Source of the DNA: an uncultured Actinomycetota bacterium
GTDB taxonomy: Bacteria; Actinomycetota; Actinomycetes; Mycobacteriales; Mycobacteriaceae
Direction: 5' to 3'
Length of the DNA stretch: 64,000 bases
NCBI GenBank assembly: GCA_963780335.1
Contig: CAWABJ010000001.1
Span: 1,747,152-1,811,151 of the forward strand
In this document: one piece after another, positions 36,691 to 42,225 of the stretch
Layout: each line of letters opens with the position of its first letter
Numbering within the stretch: position 1 is the first letter of the stretch
Position numbers and translations under genes: made by a program
The notes under the pieces: model-generated
What the model was told of the DNA's origin: nothing
The model's database searches: none
What the model saw: the letters and a program-made list of their open reading frames with translations, nothing else

Positions 36691-36960
36691 CTAGAGTGCG
36701 TCGAGTCGTTTGTTGATCCCGGCGACGTCGCGGCTGATCTTGAGCAGCTGCCGCATCACCTCGTCGATCGTCGCGCTCTCCAGTACCTTGCACGGGTCCG
36801 GTGGTGGTTCCGGCACACCACCGGGCAGCGATCCGCCGTCGGGGGTGTCGAGGGTGTAGCGACGGATGATCGCGATCAGCACGTCCGGGTTCTCACGGAG
36901 ATCGATGATTGGCCCGTGGTCGGTGATCACCTGCTTGATGACTTGCTGTTCTGACGGCAT
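36691..36960 (-). CDS. 89-aa protein with a central Pro-rich loop and a C-terminal coiled coil; candidate substrate of the downstream enzymes
   Basis: AGGAG SD before the ATG; GGSLPGGVPEPPPDPC; ATIDEVMRQLLKISRDVAGINKRLDAL; 7-nt gap to the GT start. Confidence 0.75.
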   Translation of the reverse strand: MPSEQQVIKQVITDHGPIIDLRENPDVLIAIIRRYTLDTPDGGSLPGGVPEPPPDPCKVLESATIDEVMRQLLKISRDVAGINKRLDAL

Positions 36961-37322: not shown

Positions 37323-37637
37323 GTGATCGTAGAACTACAAATCACCGGAGGATTTGCTTCACTGCCGGGCCTCAGCGGCCCCCGAATTCTTGATACCGAC
37401 ACTGTCGACGAAACGCTCCGCGACGAGATCGAATCGCTGGTCAACGACAGCCGATTCTTCGACCTTCCAGCCGAAGGAGACGACGACCGCTCACTGGACG
37501 TCGCCGACGGCTTCACCTACTCACTCGCGATAACAGATGGACTGCGGCGTAACTCGATCGTCCGAATGGAACCCGTCTCGGACCGACGATTGGCACGGTT
37601 GATCGAGGCGCTGGACAACATCACTCGACCCATATAG
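37323..37637 (+). CDS. Emfourin (M4in) protealysin inhibitor
   Basis: ELQITGGFASLPGL...SRFFDLP...ADGFTYSLAITDG...LARLI; the ORF extends to 37212 and the start is uncertain. Confidence 0.72.
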   Translation: MIVELQITGGFASLPGLSGPRILDTDTVDETLRDEIESLVNDSRFFDLPAEGDDDRSLDVADGFTYSLAITDGLRRNSIVRMEPVSDRRLARLIEALDNITRPI

Positions 37638-37691
37638 GTAGCCGGTTTCGAGAATTACAAAGTGTTCATCACATAATTTTGGGAGATTCTG

Positions 37692-38996
37692 ATGGAGATT
37701 CAACCCTCCTGCTTCTGCACAATCATTCCGCCGTACATGCTCGATGCGATTAGCAGGAACGGAACGGCGGAGCAGCGCGAGTCGGTGGCGGAAACACTCT
37801 CGCTAGAGAGTGAGATTCGCGCTGCCCGTCTCGCGAACATCCCCTCCGATACGCTTGTCGGAGCCGGTGGGGCACCGCACAAGAACCGCAGTGTCTACAC
37901 AACTTCGAATGGCACATCGCTGCCGGGCACGTTGGAACGGAAAGAAGGGCAGGCCGCCACTGGCGACGCTGCGGTCGACGAGGCCTACGACGGCCTCGGA
38001 GCGACATTCGACCTCTATTGGAACGTATTCGGTCGAGACTCCATCAACGGGAGTGGCAATGACCTGATCGCCTCTGTTCATTACGGGAACAAGTACAACA
38101 ATGCCAATTGGAATGGCTCCCAGATGATCTTCGGCGACGGCGATGGAACCATCTTCAACCGGTTCACCATTGCGATCGACGTCGAGGGCCACGAACTCAC
38201 GCATGGTGTCACTGCCGCGACTGCCAACCTGGCATACAAAGATCAGTCCGGGGCGCTCAACGAATCGGTTTCGGACTGCTTCGGATCGATGGTCAAGCAG
38301 CGCAGCAAGGGCCAGACCGCGGCTCAGGCCGACTGGTTGATAGGTGCGGGCCTACTCGCTTCGGGTATCCATGGCGTCGCGTTGCGGTCAATGAAGGCAC
38401 CCGGCACCGCCTACGACGATCCGCTGCTCGGTAAGGACCCGCAACCCGATCACATGTCGAAGTACGTGACCACCACAGCCGACAGCGGCGGCGTCCATAC
38501 GAATTCAGGAATTCCCAACAAAGCGTTCTACCTTGTCGCGACGCGGCTCGGTGGAAACTCCTGGGATAAGGGGGGTCAGATCTGGTACAAATCCTTGACC
38601 GATCCCCGACTGTCGTCGAATGCATCGTTCCTCGACTTCGCGACCATCACCGTAGACAACGCCAATGCTCTGTATGGATCATCGGCGCGCGATCTGGTAG
38701 CGAGTGCGTGGCACGACGTGGGGATTTTTGTCCCCGCCGGTCCACGAGTCGGCGTGCAGTTCACCGGCACTTTGGCTGGCCGAGCGTCGGGTAACTGGTT
38801 CACGTTCAATTGGCCGGCACAGTGGCACGTTATCTGGACCGTCGTTCCGACGACGCCTGCAGCTGGCGCACCACAGATTGGTTGGCAAACGCGGGTCGAA
38901 CGGTCGTCGAACGACTTCGCAACGTACTGGATCCGTGTGATCAACCTGACCAACGCCCAGGTCGGCTTCGAAGCCCGCTACGCCGTCTTCAATTGA
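37692..38996 (+). CDS. M4-family (protealysin-like) metalloprotease with an extra C-terminal beta domain
   Basis: Short propeptide with CTIIPPYML, NANWNG, HELTHGV, GALNESVSD, GGVHTNSGIPNKAFY; no signal peptide seen. Confidence 0.92.
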   Translation: MEIQPSCFCTIIPPYMLDAISRNGTAEQRESVAETLSLESEIRAARLANIPSDTLVGAGGAPHKNRSVYTTSNGTSLPGTLERKEGQAATGDAAVDEAYDGLGATFDLYWNVFGRDSINGSGNDLIASVHYGNKYNNANWNGSQMIFGDGDGTIFNRFTIAIDVEGHELTHGVTAATANLAYKDQSGALNESVSDCFGSMVKQRSKGQTAAQADWLIGAGLLASGIHGVALRSMKAPGTAYDDPLLGKDPQPDHMSKYVTTTADSGGVHTNSGIPNKAFYLVATRLGGNSWDKGGQIWYKSLTDPRLSSNASFLDFATITVDNANALYGSSARDLVASAWHDVGIFVPAGPRVGVQFTGTLAGRASGNWFTFNWPAQWHVIWTVVPTTPAAGAPQIGWQTRVERSSNDFATYWIRVINLTNAQVGFEARYAVFN

Positions 38997-39037
38997 CACG
39001 ACGACACTCATATCAACACGAATTGAAAGGAAGAGAA

Positions 39038-39292
39038 ATGCGAGTAGGCACACAATTCACAGGAAGTCTCGCACCGAACGAGACCAAGCGCTGGTTCACC
39101 TTCAACTGGCCAGCACCATCACATGTGGTCTGGTACATGATGCCGACCACTCCGGTTCCGGGCAAGCCCGAGCTGGATTGGGATGTCCAGGTGGAACGGA
39201 GCAACGGTACCAACGTCAGCTACTGGCTGACCGTCACCAACCTGAGCGCCAGTTCGATCACCTTCGAAGGCCGCTACGCGGTCCTGAACTGA
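39038..39292 (+). CDS. Stand-alone paralogue of the protease C-terminal domain (84 aa)
   Basis: VGTQFTGSL...WFTFNWPA...VVW...PTTP...W...VERS...YW..V.NL......FEGRYAVLN aligns over its full length with the protease C-terminus; GAAAGGAAG SD. Confidence 0.85.
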   Translation: MRVGTQFTGSLAPNETKRWFTFNWPAPSHVVWYMMPTTPVPGKPELDWDVQVERSNGTNVSYWLTVTNLSASSITFEGRYAVLN

Positions 39293-39303: not shown

Positions 39304-39573
39304 ATGGAATCGACCATGAACGTCGACAGCGCGAGCTCCTCCCTCGGCCCGGCAGTGATCGATGCTGGTCCGGCGCCGGAGACACTTCGGCTTCAGGAAG
39401 TGACGCCGCTCAATGCCGGCTCTGCGACGGAACCCATCGGCAACGGTTCCGAGCTGGACGGCGGGTCCCCGTCCGCGGAACTGCTCGCGGCCATTACCGG
39501 GGACAGCGAATCAAACAGTACCGCGACCGGTTTTACCGGTCTCGTACTCGATGCGGGTGCCGCACCGTTCTAG
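39304..39573 (+). CDS. Small acidic Ser/Gly/Ala-rich protein
   Basis: AGGGA SD; VIDAGPAP and VLDAGAAPF repeats; operon position. Confidence 0.55.
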   Translation: MESTMNVDSASSSLGPAVIDAGPAPETLRLQEVTPLNAGSATEPIGNGSELDGGSPSAELLAAITGDSESNSTATGFTGLVLDAGAAPF

Positions 39574-39789
39574 GAACGGACCTGTCTCTCAATCCCTTTG
39601 CGGGTCGTGGAAGTGGAATTTGAGCGACACGCCCGGGAAACTGATGACGAACGGACATCGATCCCTGGCCGCGAACAGGCGGTCAGGGATCGATGACAAT
39701 CAGCGAGTCATCCCTGGCAGAAGGGGTTAGTCGTGCTTTCGGGACGACGGTGCGTAGAACTCGCGCCGCACTTCTGTCCTGAGTCAATC

Positions 39790-40200
39790 ACGCGTTGGTT
39801 GTTGGACCGTGCGTGCCAACTCCCCATGCACTCGGAATCTCTTGACCCGGCGGGTAGAAGTGCGGCTGGATTGGCAATGCGGCCACGAATCGGGTTGGCG
39901 GCGAACGATGATGGATCCGACGCGGGCGCTCCTGACGCTTTCGGCTTGGCGATCAGCACTGTGCGACGTTGGCGTGAACGCCAGACCGAGTTGCGCCTCG
40001 ACGCCACGTCGGGAGCCCCCCCCCCGAGAACCACATACTGGTCGACCCGGTCGATGACCGAGCATCTGGGCTTTCCGCAGTCGATGGTGTCGCGGGTGTG
40101 ACGGGGCGTTCGGATTGGCGCCGCACGAAATCGATTCGTGGAGGTTGTCCAAGCATCCGCTGTTCGTCGCCAAGGTTTACGACGTCGTCGTGCAACACCG
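39790..40200 (+). pseudogene. IS630-family transposase remnant
   Basis: ISTVRRWRER...YWSTRSMTEHLGFPQSMVSRV*RAFGLAPHEIDSWRLSKHPLFVAKVYDVV; stop at 40099-40101; boundaries approximate. Confidence 0.8.
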
Positions 40201-40266
40201 ACGGACTATTCGCTTGGACAACGCGAGCTTTACGTCCCGCACTTTCTTGACTGTCGCTCTTCTTGC

Positions 40267-41277
40267 CTAGGCTTCGGGCATCTCCAGGACCAGCTTGTGC
40301 CCTGGTGCGAGGGTGGAGAGCTGCCGATGCGCGTCGACGACCTCGGAGAAAGGCACCGTCGTCACGGCGGGAGGCCGCAGTTGGTTGCCGACAATCCGAT
40401 CGAGCTGGTCTTGTAGAAGCCGCCGGTACTTCGCCGGCTGCAGCGTGATGAGGAGGGGTACTGAGCACAGACGCTCACGCGGTGCGGCAAGCCTGCGTGC
40501 GAACGTGGCGGGACCACCCAGTGCGGCGTCGATCCGACCGCGTCCCGGCTGACCGCTCCATGCGGTGCGCACCACGGTCCCTTCGCGCTTCGTGACCGTC
40601 CTGGCCAGTGGGGTTCCGGTGTGATCGATACTGGCGTCGGCGCCACCGGAGGTCATCTCTTGGATCTGGTTGGGCCAGTCGGGTTCACGGTAATCCACCA
40701 CCAGTGCACCCAGGGACTCCGCGCTGGTGCGGGTGCGTTGCGATGCGGTGCCGACGACGCGCTGTCCGTTTGCAATCGCCTGTTGGGCGACGAAACTACC
40801 GACCGAGCCGGAAACACCTTGAACGAAGAGTGTTCCGCTGTCGGGCAATTCAGCGAGCTCGAGAGCCAGGGCCGCGGTGACCAGATCCAGCGGCACTGCG
40901 GCGGCACAGGCTGAGTCGAGTTCGGCGGGCAGCGCGATCACCCGATCGACGCGGACGTTGAGGTGCGTTGTGTAGGCACCCATTCTGGCCAGGCAACCAA
41001 TCACCCGCGTTCCGGTGTGCAGTCCCCGGCGGGTAGCGGCCCCGTTCGTGGTCTCGACCACCCCGACGAAGTCGTAGCCGGGTGTGAAGCCGGGTCTGGG
41101 TTGTAGCAGGTAATCCCCCGCCCGTGCCATCGCGTCGGTCGATCCCACTGACGCGTGCGTCACCCGCACGAGCACTTCACGGTGCCCGGTCTTGCGTAGT
41201 GCGAACTGCTCGAGATGCAGGACCTCCGGCGGCCCGAAACGGTCGACCCGCACGCGACGCGCGTGTCGCGGAGTCAT
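40267..41277 (-). CDS. Zinc-binding alcohol dehydrogenase/quinone oxidoreductase (MDR) family
   Basis: FGPPEVL, PGFTPGYDFVGVV, VQGVSGSVG, GHKLVL. Confidence 0.85.
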   Translation of the reverse strand: MTPRHARRVRVDRFGPPEVLHLEQFALRKTGHREVLVRVTHASVGSTDAMARAGDYLLQPRPGFTPGYDFVGVVETTNGAATRRGLHTGTRVIGCLARMGAYTTHLNVRVDRVIALPAELDSACAAAVPLDLVTAALALELAELPDSGTLFVQGVSGSVGSFVAQQAIANGQRVVGTASQRTRTSAESLGALVVDYREPDWPNQIQEMTSGGADASIDHTGTPLARTVTKREGTVVRTAWSGQPGRGRIDAALGGPATFARRLAAPRERLCSVPLLITLQPAKYRRLLQDQLDRIVGNQLRPPAVTTVPFSEVVDAHRQLSTLAPGHKLVLEMPEA

Positions 41278-41357
41278 CGGCGTTCCAGCGCAGAGGCAGC
41301 GGAGAGCCCCCTTGTCCGGTTATTCATCAGTAGCATCCCTTGACGAAGGCAAGATCA

Positions 41358-41390
41358 GTAAGCATTACGACAGAACCGTATGCCTTACGG
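41358..41390. promoter_or_regulatory. Candidate TetR operators between the divergent MDR and TetR genes
   Basis: Imperfect palindromes GTAA-GCA-TTAC (41358-41368) and CCGTA-TGCCT-TACGG (41376-41390). Confidence 0.35.
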
Positions 41391-41406
41391 AAGTGGGGGT
41401 CAAGAG

Positions 41407-42066
41407 ATGGAACCGCAGGCGCGCGCGCGTCGCCGATGGGGAACTCTCACCAGGGAGGCTGTCGTCGACGGGGCCCTGGGCCTGGTCGACAGCGAAGGCT
41501 TGGAGGCTCTCAGCATGCCGCGCCTGGCTCGTCACTTGGGCACGGGCGTCATGACGCTCTATGGCCACGTCGCCAACAAGGCTGATCTGGTCGATGCTCT
41601 GGCTGAGCGGGTGCTGGCAGAACTCGAGCCCGTCGACGGCAAGAGCCGCCACTGGGACCACGCGCTAGCCGAGCACATGCGCTGCCTACGGCGCGTGCTT
41701 CTTCGTCACCCGGCATTGGGGGCGGTGCTGGCGGCGCGCCGGGTGGCGACTCCATCCGTCTTCCGCAACCAAGAGGCCATTCTTGGACTACTGCGGTCGG
41801 CGGGCTTCGACCGCGCCCTCTCCGTGCGGATCTACTTCGCGCTACTCACTTACACGTTGGGGTTCGTCACGTGGGAGGTCCCTAGGCGCCTTCACGAATC
41901 AGAAGACGGCTATGGAAGACATTGGCAAAACATCTTGGAGGGGCTCGCCCCCGACGTGTATCCCACTCTTCACGATCTGGCTGATCAGCTGGCCGATGCA
42001 GCCGGCGAGAATCAGTTCGAGGCCGGCCTCAGTGCGCTGCTACGCGGTTTCACCCCCGTCGCCTGA
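41407..42066 (+). CDS. TetR/AcrR-family regulator (TetR_C type)
   Basis: LTREAVVDGALGLVDSEGLEALSMPRLARHLGTGVMTLYGHVANKADL. Confidence 0.92.
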   Translation: MEPQARARRRWGTLTREAVVDGALGLVDSEGLEALSMPRLARHLGTGVMTLYGHVANKADLVDALAERVLAELEPVDGKSRHWDHALAEHMRCLRRVLLRHPALGAVLAARRVATPSVFRNQEAILGLLRSAGFDRALSVRIYFALLTYTLGFVTWEVPRRLHESEDGYGRHWQNILEGLAPDVYPTLHDLADQLADAAGENQFEAGLSALLRGFTPVA

Positions 42067-42225
42067 CCGCTCAGCTCACCACTCGGCATTGCGAGGGTGC
42101 TCACGGTTGGCGGTCCGGCCTCCGCGGGGGCCGCAGCTGTCGTTAAAGTTGCGGATGAGATTGGTTGACGTTCAGGCGTGCAGTGAAAGTACTCTGATCC
42201 CGTCGCCCTACGCCAGGGAGAAACG

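What the first reader, a model, noticed from the sequence alone, without database searches (positions are those of the whole stretch)
37323..39292. Protealysin operon with inhibitor first and the protease's extra C-terminal domain repeated as a free protein
Seen: emfourin-like gene upstream of the M4 protease (the usual order is protease then inhibitor). The protease carries an additional ~83-aa Trp-rich beta domain (QFTG.L...WFTFNWPA...FE.RYAV.N), and the next gene encodes only a paralogue of that domain. No signal peptides. Inference: the domain may co-assemble (shell, filament or lectin-like oligomer) and recruit the protease, or the free copy acts as a decoy or targeting subunit; a toxin-immunity role is also plausible.
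Basis: partly seen in the sequence, partly recalled or inferred. Interest (0 to 1): 0.65.

Follow-up and report, generated by a model that had tools for sequence, protein, structure and literature searches.

The report
Protease cassette with twin tail domain
A horizontally acquired four-gene operon encodes a thermolysin-type protease, its inhibitor, a free copy of the protease's extra tail domain and a disordered motif-bearing protein; it is a chimeric member of a widespread gene cassette, found from soil bacteria to a salt-loving archaeon, that none of the databases or papers I searched describes.

Summary
The + strand carries an emfourin gene (37323-37637), an intact protealysin-like M4 protease with an extra 83-aa C-terminal beta-sandwich (37692-38996), and a free 84-aa paralogue of that domain (39038-39292; 52% identity, E 1e-33). 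It encodes a disordered protein with three DAGPAP-type motifs.

This trio is not a local oddity. In all 82 other loci examined, the free domain gene directly follows a larger gene ending in the same domain. In nearly all, a motif-bearing disordered protein follows. The enzyme "heads" vary: BNR propeller, S8, M4, astacin, M64, trypsin, protein-glutaminase. The cassette spans more than 10 bacterial phyla and Haloferax.

Free and fused copies form two separate clades, so the duplication predates the sampled cassettes. The window's copies nest among S8-type cassettes, so an M4+emfourin head replaced an S8 head. Putting the inhibitor first recurs in these cassettes. A second, non-homologous twin-domain family shows the same layout.

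No Pfam, NCBIfam, PADLOC, PHROG or PDB match exists for the domain. My best mechanism is that the disordered protein's motifs dock onto the beta-sandwich domains and tether or regulate a latent, inhibitor-guarded hydrolase. That mechanism is inferred, not shown.

The parts
37323..37637 (+). Emfourin-family M4 protease inhibitor gene, 104 aa from GTG 37323 (the ORF is open from 37212).
   Evidence: Pfam PF20242, E 3.5e-16, above the gathering cutoff. The same position upstream of M4-CTD is seen in L085, L087, L089 and L095.
37692..38996 (+). Protealysin-like M4 metalloprotease with an extra C-terminal domain, 434 aa. It has no signal peptide. The propeptide region with IIPPYML lies at residues 9-37.
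   Evidence: Pfam M4 and M4_C, with a weak PLN_propep hit. HELTH and GALNES are intact. The catalytic part is 70-73% identical to many ~428-aa M4 proteases that carry a different tail domain.
38745..38993 (+). Fused copy of the 83-aa Trp-rich beta-sandwich domain ('X1', CTD), residues 352-434 of the protease.
   Evidence: HMM of the family scores 129.7 bits. It is 52% identical to the free copy. It nests among the CTDs of S8-type cassettes with support 97/99.
39038..39292 (+). Free X1 domain protein, 84 aa.
   Evidence: 282 homologues at 60-86% identity, nearly all 84-85 aa. AlphaFold2 gives pLDDT 95.9 and a six-strand sandwich. No match in Pfam, NCBIfam, PADLOC, PHROGs or PDB.
39304..39573 (+). 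Disordered 89-aa partner protein. Its N-terminus MESTMNVD fits the family's beta-strand-like start. It carries three short motifs.
   Evidence: An equivalent gene lies 4-40 nt after the free domain gene in nearly all loci. Strict motifs number 98 in 80 proteins, against 0.32 in shuffles. It is 60% identical to its orthologue in a 91%-identical relative, yet all three motifs are unchanged.
39361..39378 (+). Motif 1, DAGPAP, within VIDAGPAPETL.
   Evidence: Translation and family motif [DNS]AG[PAGS]AP.
39457..39474 (+). Motif 2, DGGSPS, followed by the helix-like AELLAAI. This is the variant typical of S8-type cassettes.
   Evidence: Translation. Compare DGGxPPxWL and DGGEPSPALLAAV in L005, L013 and L014.
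39550..39567 (+). Motif 3, DAGAAP, one residue from the C-terminus.
   Evidence: Translation. The last motif lies 6 residues or fewer from the C-terminus in 39 of 75 family members.

Best explanation
The locus is a horizontally acquired four-gene operon: emfourin, M4 protease-X1, free X1, and a disordered motif protein. It is a chimeric member of a widespread, unannotated 'twin-domain hydrolase cassette'.

What the data show. The cassette has a variable enzyme head fused to a constant 84-aa beta-sandwich (X1). A free X1 paralogue follows directly. Then comes a small intrinsically disordered protein (IDP) with a beta-strand-like N-terminus and 2-3 [DNS]AG.AP motifs. In the window, an M4+emfourin head unit replaced the S8 head of an S8-type cassette.

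What I infer about the mechanism.
- The protease is made as a cytoplasmic, propeptide-bearing zymogen, and emfourin blocks it 1:1.
- The Trp-rich X1 domains are peptide-binding modules that dock onto the Pro-containing motifs of the IDP.
- One IDP therefore bridges the enzyme's tail and the free X1 copy or copies into a defined complex.
- That complex tethers, limits or localises the latent hydrolase until a trigger releases it, such as cell damage or lysis, as described for protealysin.

The biological role is most likely inter-microbial conflict or defence, with the inhibitor acting as self-protection.
For: Cassette membership.
- In 82 of 82 other loci the free X1 gene is directly preceded by a gene ending in X1.
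- Heads cluster as 49 BNR/Sortilin propellers and 30 S8 peptidases. The window is the only M4 in that set.
- Heads elsewhere also include Gln_deamidase_2, astacin, M64, trypsin and metzincins.
- The IDP gene is nearly universal. Motif enrichment is 98 observed against 0.32 in shuffles, and 74 of 80 N-termini fit the strand pattern.
- The cassette is also present in Haloferax mediterranei.

Age of the duplication and head swap.
- All 81 free copies split from all 81 CTDs (support 97/89).
- The window's CTD and free copy both lie inside the S8-type subclades (97/99 and 96/88).
- The window IDP has the S8-type middle motif.

Motif docking.
- I folded a naturally in-frame free-X1+IDP read-through with AlphaFold2. 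Motif 1 (LDAGP) became a beta-strand with pLDDT about 76, between linkers with pLDDT below 50.
- Five invariant Trp residues sit in an 84-aa domain.
- The motifs are unchanged while the linkers diverge.
- A non-homologous second twin-domain family (hhalign probability 0.06%) has the same gene layout but a different motif class, xPTP. This suggests motifs co-vary with the domain type.

Inhibitor-first as a recurring layout.
- Emfourin lies upstream in L087, L089, L095 and L096.
- Sixteen S8 cassettes carry an upstream stand-alone paralogue of the head's own prodomain (hhalign 95%).

Latent cytoplasmic enzyme.
- No signal-like segment occurs in the four window proteins or in 81 heads.
- Protealysin accumulates as a precursor that is activated after lysis (PMC6778150).
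- Emfourin binds it 1:1, and a toxin/immunity role has been proposed (PMC9505478).

Horizontal transfer.
- None of 80 related genomes has the domain.
- The region has a GC dip to 57-60% and an integrase nearby.
Against: - The docking evidence is one AlphaFold2 model of an artificial single chain with an 18-row alignment. I saw only pLDDT and secondary structure, not contacts or PAE.
- The C-terminal motif and the N-terminal strand of the IDP were not placed with confidence.
- Free and fused X1 differ consistently at only one position, Y33 versus T. Distinct roles for the two copies are therefore not evident.
- IDPs of the two non-homologous domain families share a similar N-terminal strand, so part of the IDP may bind something other than X.
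- Distant family members include HTH fusions and secreted multi-copy proteins, so the domain is not tied to one process.
- There are no expression or interaction data.
- The proposed biological role rests on analogy only.
Confidence: 0.45

Rival explanations
1. Co-assembly. X1 is an oligomerisation unit. Free X1 builds a ring, shell or filament, and occasional enzyme-X1 subunits are incorporated. The IDP acts as glue or a ruler.
For: Free X1 is 60-86% identical across phyla, which suggests many constrained surfaces. Free and fused copies are almost interchangeable in sequence. The pair is obligate. A second, unrelated domain family uses the same free-plus-fused layout.
Against: No structural similarity to any shell, capsid or filament protein at E<1e-3. 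The model is a plain monomeric sandwich. Nothing was tested for oligomers.
Confidence: 0.2
2. Export handle. X1 marks signal-less hydrolase effectors for a non-classical export or release route. Free X1 and the IDP act as co-chaperone and adaptor. The heads are polymorphic effectors, and emfourin or the free prodomain is the immunity protein.
For: The heads belong to families whose classical members are secreted enzymes, yet they lack signal peptides. Inhibitor genes are attached. In about 30 of 44 BNR-type cassettes a 66-90-aa protein with 2-3 TM segments and a basic tail follows the IDP. It is holin-like in size and topology only.
Against: No secretion or injection genes are conserved around the 82 loci. 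The cassette occurs in monoderm and diderm bacteria and in an archaeon, which argues against one envelope-specific machine. The small membrane protein is absent from the window and from nearly all S8-type cassettes.
Confidence: 0.15
3. Substrate targeting. X1 is a ligand-binding module (CBM-, lectin- or PPC-like) that directs the hydrolase to a substrate. The free copy competes for the same ligand. The IDP is either the substrate itself or a peptide precursor processed by the head.
For: The weak fold resemblances are all to binding modules: GOLD, PPC/collagenase C-terminal domain, CBM36, CBM3b, phage fibre tips (TM 0.5-0.66, E>=8e-3). Distant relatives sit in secreted multi-copy and fibre-like proteins. 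All heads act on, or bind, peptides or glycans.
Against: None of these similarities is significant. Pfam PPC does not match. One IDP type serves very different heads (propeller, glutaminase, peptidases), which is hard to reconcile with it being a common substrate. No modification enzymes typical of peptide natural-product clusters are conserved nearby.
Confidence: 0.12
4. Ordinary protealysin-emfourin operon with an incidental recent tandem duplication of a tail domain. The downstream ORF is not a gene.
For: High-GC DNA gives many spurious ORFs.
Against: The free/fused split predates all sampled cassettes. The trio is conserved in 82 loci across phyla. Motif enrichment is about 300-fold over shuffles.
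Confidence: 0.01

Closest known systems
Protealysin-emfourin (pln-m4in) operon of Serratia proteamaculans
   Same: Both pair an M4 protealysin-like protease, which has a short propeptide and no signal peptide, with an emfourin-family inhibitor in one operon. Protealysin is stored as a precursor and is blocked 1:1 by emfourin (PMC9505478, PMC6778150; Pfam).
   Different: Here the inhibitor gene comes first. The protease carries an extra 83-aa domain. Two further genes belong to the unit (free domain and IDP). The head is only one of many interchangeable enzymes in the cassette family.
Polymorphic toxin / effector-immunity cassettes
   Same: Both combine a variable enzymatic domain with a constant domain, have an adjacent protective inhibitor, and show patchy, horizontally spread distribution.
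   Different: The constant part here is C-terminal and is duplicated as a free protein. There is no N-terminal trafficking domain and no linked secretion system. The inhibitor lies upstream. Toxicity is untested.
Pre-peptidase C-terminal (PPC) domains and collagen-binding domains of secreted M4, M9 and S8 peptidases
   Same: Both are small beta-sandwiches at the C-terminus of peptidases. I recall that collagen-binding members bind Pro-rich helices. The fold resemblance has TM 0.53.
   Different: There is no Pfam PPC match and Foldseek gives E 0.6. PPC enzymes are secreted, and to my knowledge they have no free paralogue or IDP partner.
Subtilase propeptide (I9-type) inhibitors
   Same: S8-type cassettes encode an upstream free paralogue of the head's own N-terminal prodomain (hhalign 95%). 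This plays the part that emfourin plays in the window.
   Different: Pfam support is only a weak Fervidolysin_NPro-like hit (E 0.019). Inhibition is untested, and the element is not present in the window.
Motif-scaffold systems (cohesin-dockerin; the carboxysome IDP CsoS2 with repeated short motifs)
   Same: As inferred here, a multivalent disordered or modular scaffold carries repeated short motifs that recruit folded domains attached to enzymes.
   Different: There is no sequence or fold relation. The comparison is an analogy from memory, and binding here is only predicted.

Membership tests
M4 peptidase, protealysin-like subgroup | Peptidase_M4 and M4_C domains with the HEXXH...E zinc site | tested here: met
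   Pfam E 3e-29 and 7e-53. HELTH at 167-171 and GALNES at 187-192.
M4 peptidase, protealysin-like subgroup | Short N-terminal propeptide with the PPL-type motif, and no signal peptide | tested here: inconclusive
   PLN_propep scores 24.3 bits, below the cutoff of 28.1, at residues 9-37. The motif reads IIPPYML. No hydrophobic N-terminal segment.
M4 peptidase, protealysin-like subgroup | Proteolytic activity and zymogen activation | not testable with these tools
   Requires enzyme assays.
Emfourin (PF20242) inhibitors | Match to the family model above its cutoff, and a gene adjacent to an M4 protease | tested here: met
   59.8 bits against a cutoff of 27. The gene ends 54 nt before the protease start.
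Emfourin (PF20242) inhibitors | 1:1 inhibition of the cognate protease | not testable with these tools
   Known for the Serratia pair (PMC9505478).
Twin-domain hydrolase cassette, type 1 (defined here) | An X1-tailed gene directly followed by a free X1 gene on the same strand | tested here: met
   Window: a 41-nt gap. The same arrangement holds in 82 of 82 other loci.
Twin-domain hydrolase cassette, type 1 (defined here) | A downstream disordered protein with a strand-like N-terminus and at least two [DNSE][AG]G.[APS][PAS] motifs | tested here: met
   The window gene 39304-39573 has three motifs.
Twin-domain hydrolase cassette, type 1 (defined here) | Physical complex of the three proteins | tested here: inconclusive
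   Only a single-chain AlphaFold2 model of a relative. The motif-1 region has pLDDT about 76.
Polymorphic toxin systems | N-terminal trafficking or secretion domain, or linkage to a secretion apparatus | tested here: not met
   No signal-like segment. No conserved secretion genes near the 82 loci.
Polymorphic toxin systems | Variable toxin domains on a constant scaffold, with an adjacent immunity gene | tested here: inconclusive
   The heads vary and inhibitors are adjacent. The polarity is reversed, and toxicity is untested.
PPC domain (PF04151) | Match to the Pfam model or a significant fold match | tested here: not met
   No Pfam hit at E<=0.1. Foldseek to 5sv5 gives E 0.6 and TM 0.53.
Known anti-phage defence systems (PADLOC-DB 2.0) | Any component matching a PADLOC model | tested here: not met
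   Ten cassette proteins gave no hit at E<=0.01.

The most novel reading that the evidence does not exclude
The twin-domain cassettes (type 1 with X1, type 2 with an unrelated 77-aa domain) are a new, pan-prokaryotic class of motif-driven assembly system. A short disordered protein with repeated Pro-containing motifs gathers a free adaptor domain and an identical adaptor fused to a latent hydrolase into a stored complex or condensate. The hydrolase is armed only when the cell is damaged or lysed. This would be a 'booby-trap' or posthumous-defence device with freely swappable enzyme warheads.
Probability: 0.2. Interest if true: 0.85.

Novelty: new variant of a known kind. Interest (0 to 1): 0.72.

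Why it matters
The protease-plus-inhibitor pair is familiar. It sits inside a conserved three-part module: an enzyme tail domain, a free copy of that domain, and a motif-bearing disordered protein. This module has no model in Pfam, NCBIfam, PADLOC or PHROGs and no solved structure. It nevertheless occurs in more than ten bacterial phyla and in a haloarchaeon, with enzyme heads exchanged like cartridges. A second, unrelated small domain is used in exactly the same layout.

That points to a general design principle for handling cytoplasmic, potentially self-harmful hydrolases that has not been studied. It also offers a possible answer to an open question about protealysin-like proteases: how an intracellular, signal-less protease is kept, positioned and released.

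The system is small and testable. The proteins are 84-aa and about 90-aa long, the motifs are six residues, and the cassette occurs in Streptomyces and in the model haloarchaeon Haloferax mediterranei.

Tried and rejected
- Sequence search of PDB with the X1 profile: no hit at E<=10.
- Foldseek of the pLDDT-96 model against PDB and BFVD: nothing at E<1e-3. The best hits were a GOLD domain (TM 0.56), PPC (TM 0.53) and phage fibre-like proteins at E 8e-3.
- PADLOC and PHROGs: no hits.
- Idea that X1 is a PPC domain: one secreted protein, P0227, has four tandem X1-like repeats that looked PPC-like to me. Pfam PPC does not match it, so I dropped the idea as unproven.
- Idea that X1 and the type-2 domain are distant homologues: hhalign probability 0.06%. 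Rejected.
- Profile of the small gene upstream of S8 heads against PDB: nothing significant. Its relation to the head's own prodomain was then shown by hhalign.
- Search for conserved secretion, injection or NTPase genes around 82 loci by all-against-all clustering: none beyond the cassette itself and small membrane proteins.
- Effector-associated domains and EACC1 systems in PMC7159879: different architecture, no match.
- Link between the adjacent proline-hydroxylase/GlcNAc-transferase cassette and the Pro-containing motifs: adjacency holds only in near-identical relatives, not in L087. No general link.
- Phages hold no X1 homologue. Among plasmids only the Haloferax megaplasmid does.
Full report
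**Anatomy of the window.**
Four co-directional, closely spaced genes lie on the + strand.
- An emfourin-family inhibitor gene, 37323-37637 (Pfam PF20242, E 3.5e-16).
- A 434-aa M4 metalloprotease, 37692-38996.
- An 84-aa gene, 39038-39292.
- An 89-aa gene, 39304-39573.

The intergenic gaps are 54, 41 and 11 nt. The protease has both M4 Pfam domains and an intact HELTH...GALNES zinc site. A weak protealysin-propeptide match covers IIPPYML. Its last 83 residues match no Pfam or NCBIfam model. The 84-aa protein is 52% identical to that tail without gaps (E 1e-33). None of the four proteins has a signal-peptide-like hydrophobic segment. The unit should be extended by one gene.

**The domain.**
With a 35-sequence alignment, AlphaFold2 folds the free protein into a six-strand beta-sandwich (mean pLDDT 95.9). 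Thirteen positions are invariant, and five of them are Trp. A profile search of PDB sequences found nothing. Foldseek against PDB and BFVD gave no match at E<1e-3. The nearest folds are generic binding sandwiches: GOLD, PPC, CBMs and phage fibre tips. PADLOC and PHROGs have no model for it. I call the domain X1.

**The pair is obligate and widespread.**
- The free protein has 282 homologous clusters at 60-86% identity, almost all 84-85 aa long.
- A profile search of 1.84 billion representatives found 305 proteins. In the longer ones the domain is nearly always at the C-terminus.
- A scan of one genome per species (185,579 species) found 287 encoding stretches.
- In every one of the 82 loci I fetched, the free gene is directly preceded, on the same strand, by a larger gene that ends in X1. 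The median distance is 20 nt.
- The hosts span Actinomycetota, Bacteroidota, Chloroflexota, Pseudomonadota, Cyanobacteriota, Planctomycetota, Nitrospirota, Acidobacteriota, Gemmatimonadota and Methylomirabilota.
- The archaeon Haloferax mediterranei also has it, on its 505-kb plasmid.

**The heads are interchangeable.**
Clustering the upstream proteins gives 49 BNR/Sortilin-type propellers of about 850-900 aa and 30 S8 peptidases. The window is the only M4 protease in that set. Among representative proteins the heads also include protein-glutaminase (Gln_deamidase_2), astacin, M64, trypsin and other metzincins. A few proteins are about 200 aa with an HTH_23/29 DNA-binding head. None of 81 heads has a signal-like N-terminus.

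**The third partner.**
Directly after the free gene (typically 4-40 nt), nearly every locus encodes a 70-140-aa protein rich in Ala, Gly, Pro, Ser and Thr.
- 74 of 80 start with an alternating strand-like N-terminus, with consensus MRITIEID.
- 75 of 80 carry [DNSE][AG]G.[APS][PAS] motifs.
- The strict form [DNS]AG[PAGS]AP occurs 98 times, against 0.32 expected from composition-preserving shuffles.
- The last motif often sits at the very C-terminus.

The window protein has VIDAGPAPETL, LDGGSPSAELLAAI and LDAGAAPF. Against its orthologue in a relative whose protease is 91% identical, the protein is only 60% identical overall. All three motifs are unchanged. Conserved islands in a fast-evolving disordered chain are the signature of short linear motifs.

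**History of the window's copy.**
A maximum-likelihood tree of 81 fused and 81 free X1 domains separates all free copies from all fused copies (support 97/89). The duplication therefore predates the sampled cassettes, and the two copies have been inherited together.
- The window's fused copy lies in a 22-member clade otherwise made only of S8-type tails (97/99).
- The window's free copy lies in the matching S8-type clade of free copies (96/88).
- The window's disordered protein has the S8-type middle motif.
- The window's catalytic domain, by contrast, is 70-73% identical to a large group of ~428-aa M4 proteases that carry a different tail.

The simplest reading is that an M4+emfourin head unit replaced the S8 head of a type-1 cassette. 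The same chimera exists in a more distant organism. There the M4-X1 protease is 63% identical, with emfourin upstream and the 84-aa and 147-aa genes downstream. None of 48 same-genus and 32 same-order genomes has X1. The region has lower GC content than its flanks, and an integrase lies nearby. This fits horizontal acquisition.

**A parallel family.**
The other tail on M4 proteases is a 77-80-aa domain that I call X2. It shows the same layout: emfourin, M4-X2, a free 77-aa X2 paralogue, then a disordered protein of about 100-120 aa. That protein starts M..SITI(R/K)LDFG and carries repeated xPTP motifs.
- Free X2 forms 108 clusters at 66-97% identity.
- X2 also sits behind an M6-like head.
- X1 and X2 profiles are not detectably related (hhalign probability 0.06%).

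Two unrelated domains used in one layout, each with its own motif class, argues for a shared functional principle. It also argues that the motifs go with the domains.

**Inhibitor-first order.**
Emfourin lies upstream in the window, L085, L087, L089, L095 and L096. It lies convergent and downstream in Caballeronia. In 16 S8-type cassettes a gene of about 90 aa immediately upstream of the head is a paralogue of the head's own N-terminal prodomain region (hhalign 95%). From general knowledge, subtilase prodomains are tight inhibitors of their enzymes. This looks like the S8 counterpart of emfourin, but that was not tested, and Pfam support is only a weak hit.

**Mechanism.**
Shown by the data:
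- the conserved gene trio;
- the motif enrichment;
- the clean separation of free and fused clades;
- the swapping of heads;
- the absence of export signals;
- the presence of cognate inhibitors.

Inferred: X1 binds the motifs. To probe this, I used loci where the free gene and the disordered-protein gene are in the same frame. I read the single stop codon as Gly and folded the resulting chain of Agromyces humi with an 18-row alignment. The X1 part folded as before. The first motif (LDAGP) became a beta-strand with pLDDT about 76, flanked by linkers below 50. The N-terminal strand scored 53-65, and the C-terminal motif scored below 50. This is suggestive only. I could see neither contacts nor PAE, and the tether is artificial.

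The literature adds context. Protealysin is stored as an inactive precursor that is activated after cell lysis. Emfourin blocks it 1:1. The authors propose a toxin/immunity-like role in bacterial competition (PMC6778150, PMC9505478).

My proposal is a stored complex. Emfourin blocks the active site, and the disordered protein bridges the protease tail and the free X1. The complex positions or restrains the enzyme until the cell is compromised.

**Rivals.**
- X1 could be a handle for a non-classical export route. In about 30 of 44 propeller-type cassettes a 66-90-aa membrane protein with 2-3 TM segments and a basic tail follows the disordered protein. Its size and topology resemble a holin. The window and almost all S8-type cassettes lack it.
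- X1 could be a substrate-targeting module with the free copy as a competitor.

None of these is excluded. I rank them below the motif-docking model because of the motif statistics, the pairing of motif class with domain type, and the AlphaFold2 result.

**Novelty.**
The M4-emfourin pair is known. I did not find the twin-domain-plus-motif-protein module in Pfam, NCBIfam, PADLOC, PHROGs or PDB, nor in the papers I could search. My literature reach was limited: only three held papers mention emfourin, and subscription journals are not covered. I file the locus as a new variant of the hydrolase-plus-inhibitor, effector-like cassette. The module itself may prove to be a new kind of system.

Noticed in passing
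L089:3018-5427; L092, L093, L095, L096 (type-2 loci): A second 'twin-domain' cassette exists. Many ~428-aa M4 proteases (and an M6-like 579-aa head) end in an unrelated 77-80-aa domain. They are followed by a free 77-aa paralogue (108 clusters, 66-97% identity) and a disordered protein that starts M..SITIRLDFG and carries xPTP motifs. Some sources label the free protein 'immune inhibitor A / Peptidase M6'.
   Followed up: partly
L088:6269-6910 (Haloferax mediterranei plasmid pHME505, NZ_CP039140.1): The 213-aa disordered partner (MRIIIEID..., four DAG/NGG-AP motifs) of an S8-X1 / free-X1 cassette appears only as a 50-aa CDS in the gene table shown. The cassette therefore also exists in a model archaeon.
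   Followed up: partly
L003, L004, L012, L037 and others, about 300 nt upstream of the S8 heads (alignment A3): Sixteen S8-type cassettes encode a free ~90-aa paralogue of the head's own N-terminal prodomain (...VEAAYVKPP), placed where emfourin sits in the window.
   Followed up: yes
L008, L010, L016, L044, L049, L068 and others, just downstream of the disordered-protein gene: Several unrelated families of 66-90-aa membrane proteins with 2-3 TM segments and basic C-termini follow the cassette in about 30 of 44 propeller-type loci. They resemble holins in size and topology. They are absent in the window.
   Followed up: partly
window 35191-36960 (- strand); L085:142-1907: The divergently transcribed 2OG-Fe oxygenase / GlcNAc-transferase / 89-aa cassette stays adjacent to the protease cassette in the 91%-identical relatives, but not in the 63%-identical M4-X1 locus L087. 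I found no general link to the Pro-containing motifs.
   Followed up: partly
P0140, P0142, P0143, P0156, P0268 (representative proteins): These ~200-aa proteins join an IS630-like HTH_23/29 DNA-binding head, through a Pro-rich linker, to an X1 domain. Their genomic context was not examined.
   Followed up: no
P0227, P0229, P0236, P0242, P0257 (representative proteins): Divergent X1-like domains also occur in proteins with signal peptides. One 968-aa protein has 4-5 tandem copies plus fn3. Several fibre-like proteins with repeated 'LDG.DSS.F' segments end in the domain.
   Followed up: no
window 39574-42225; 34980-35171: In the 43.6-kb relative contig, the GMC oxidoreductase follows the cassette directly. 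The window has about 2.6 kb more there: unassigned ORFs at 39600-40260, an ADH_zinc gene on the - strand, and a TetR gene. A weak IstB/IS21 remnant lies between the integrase and the oxygenase cassette.
   Followed up: partly
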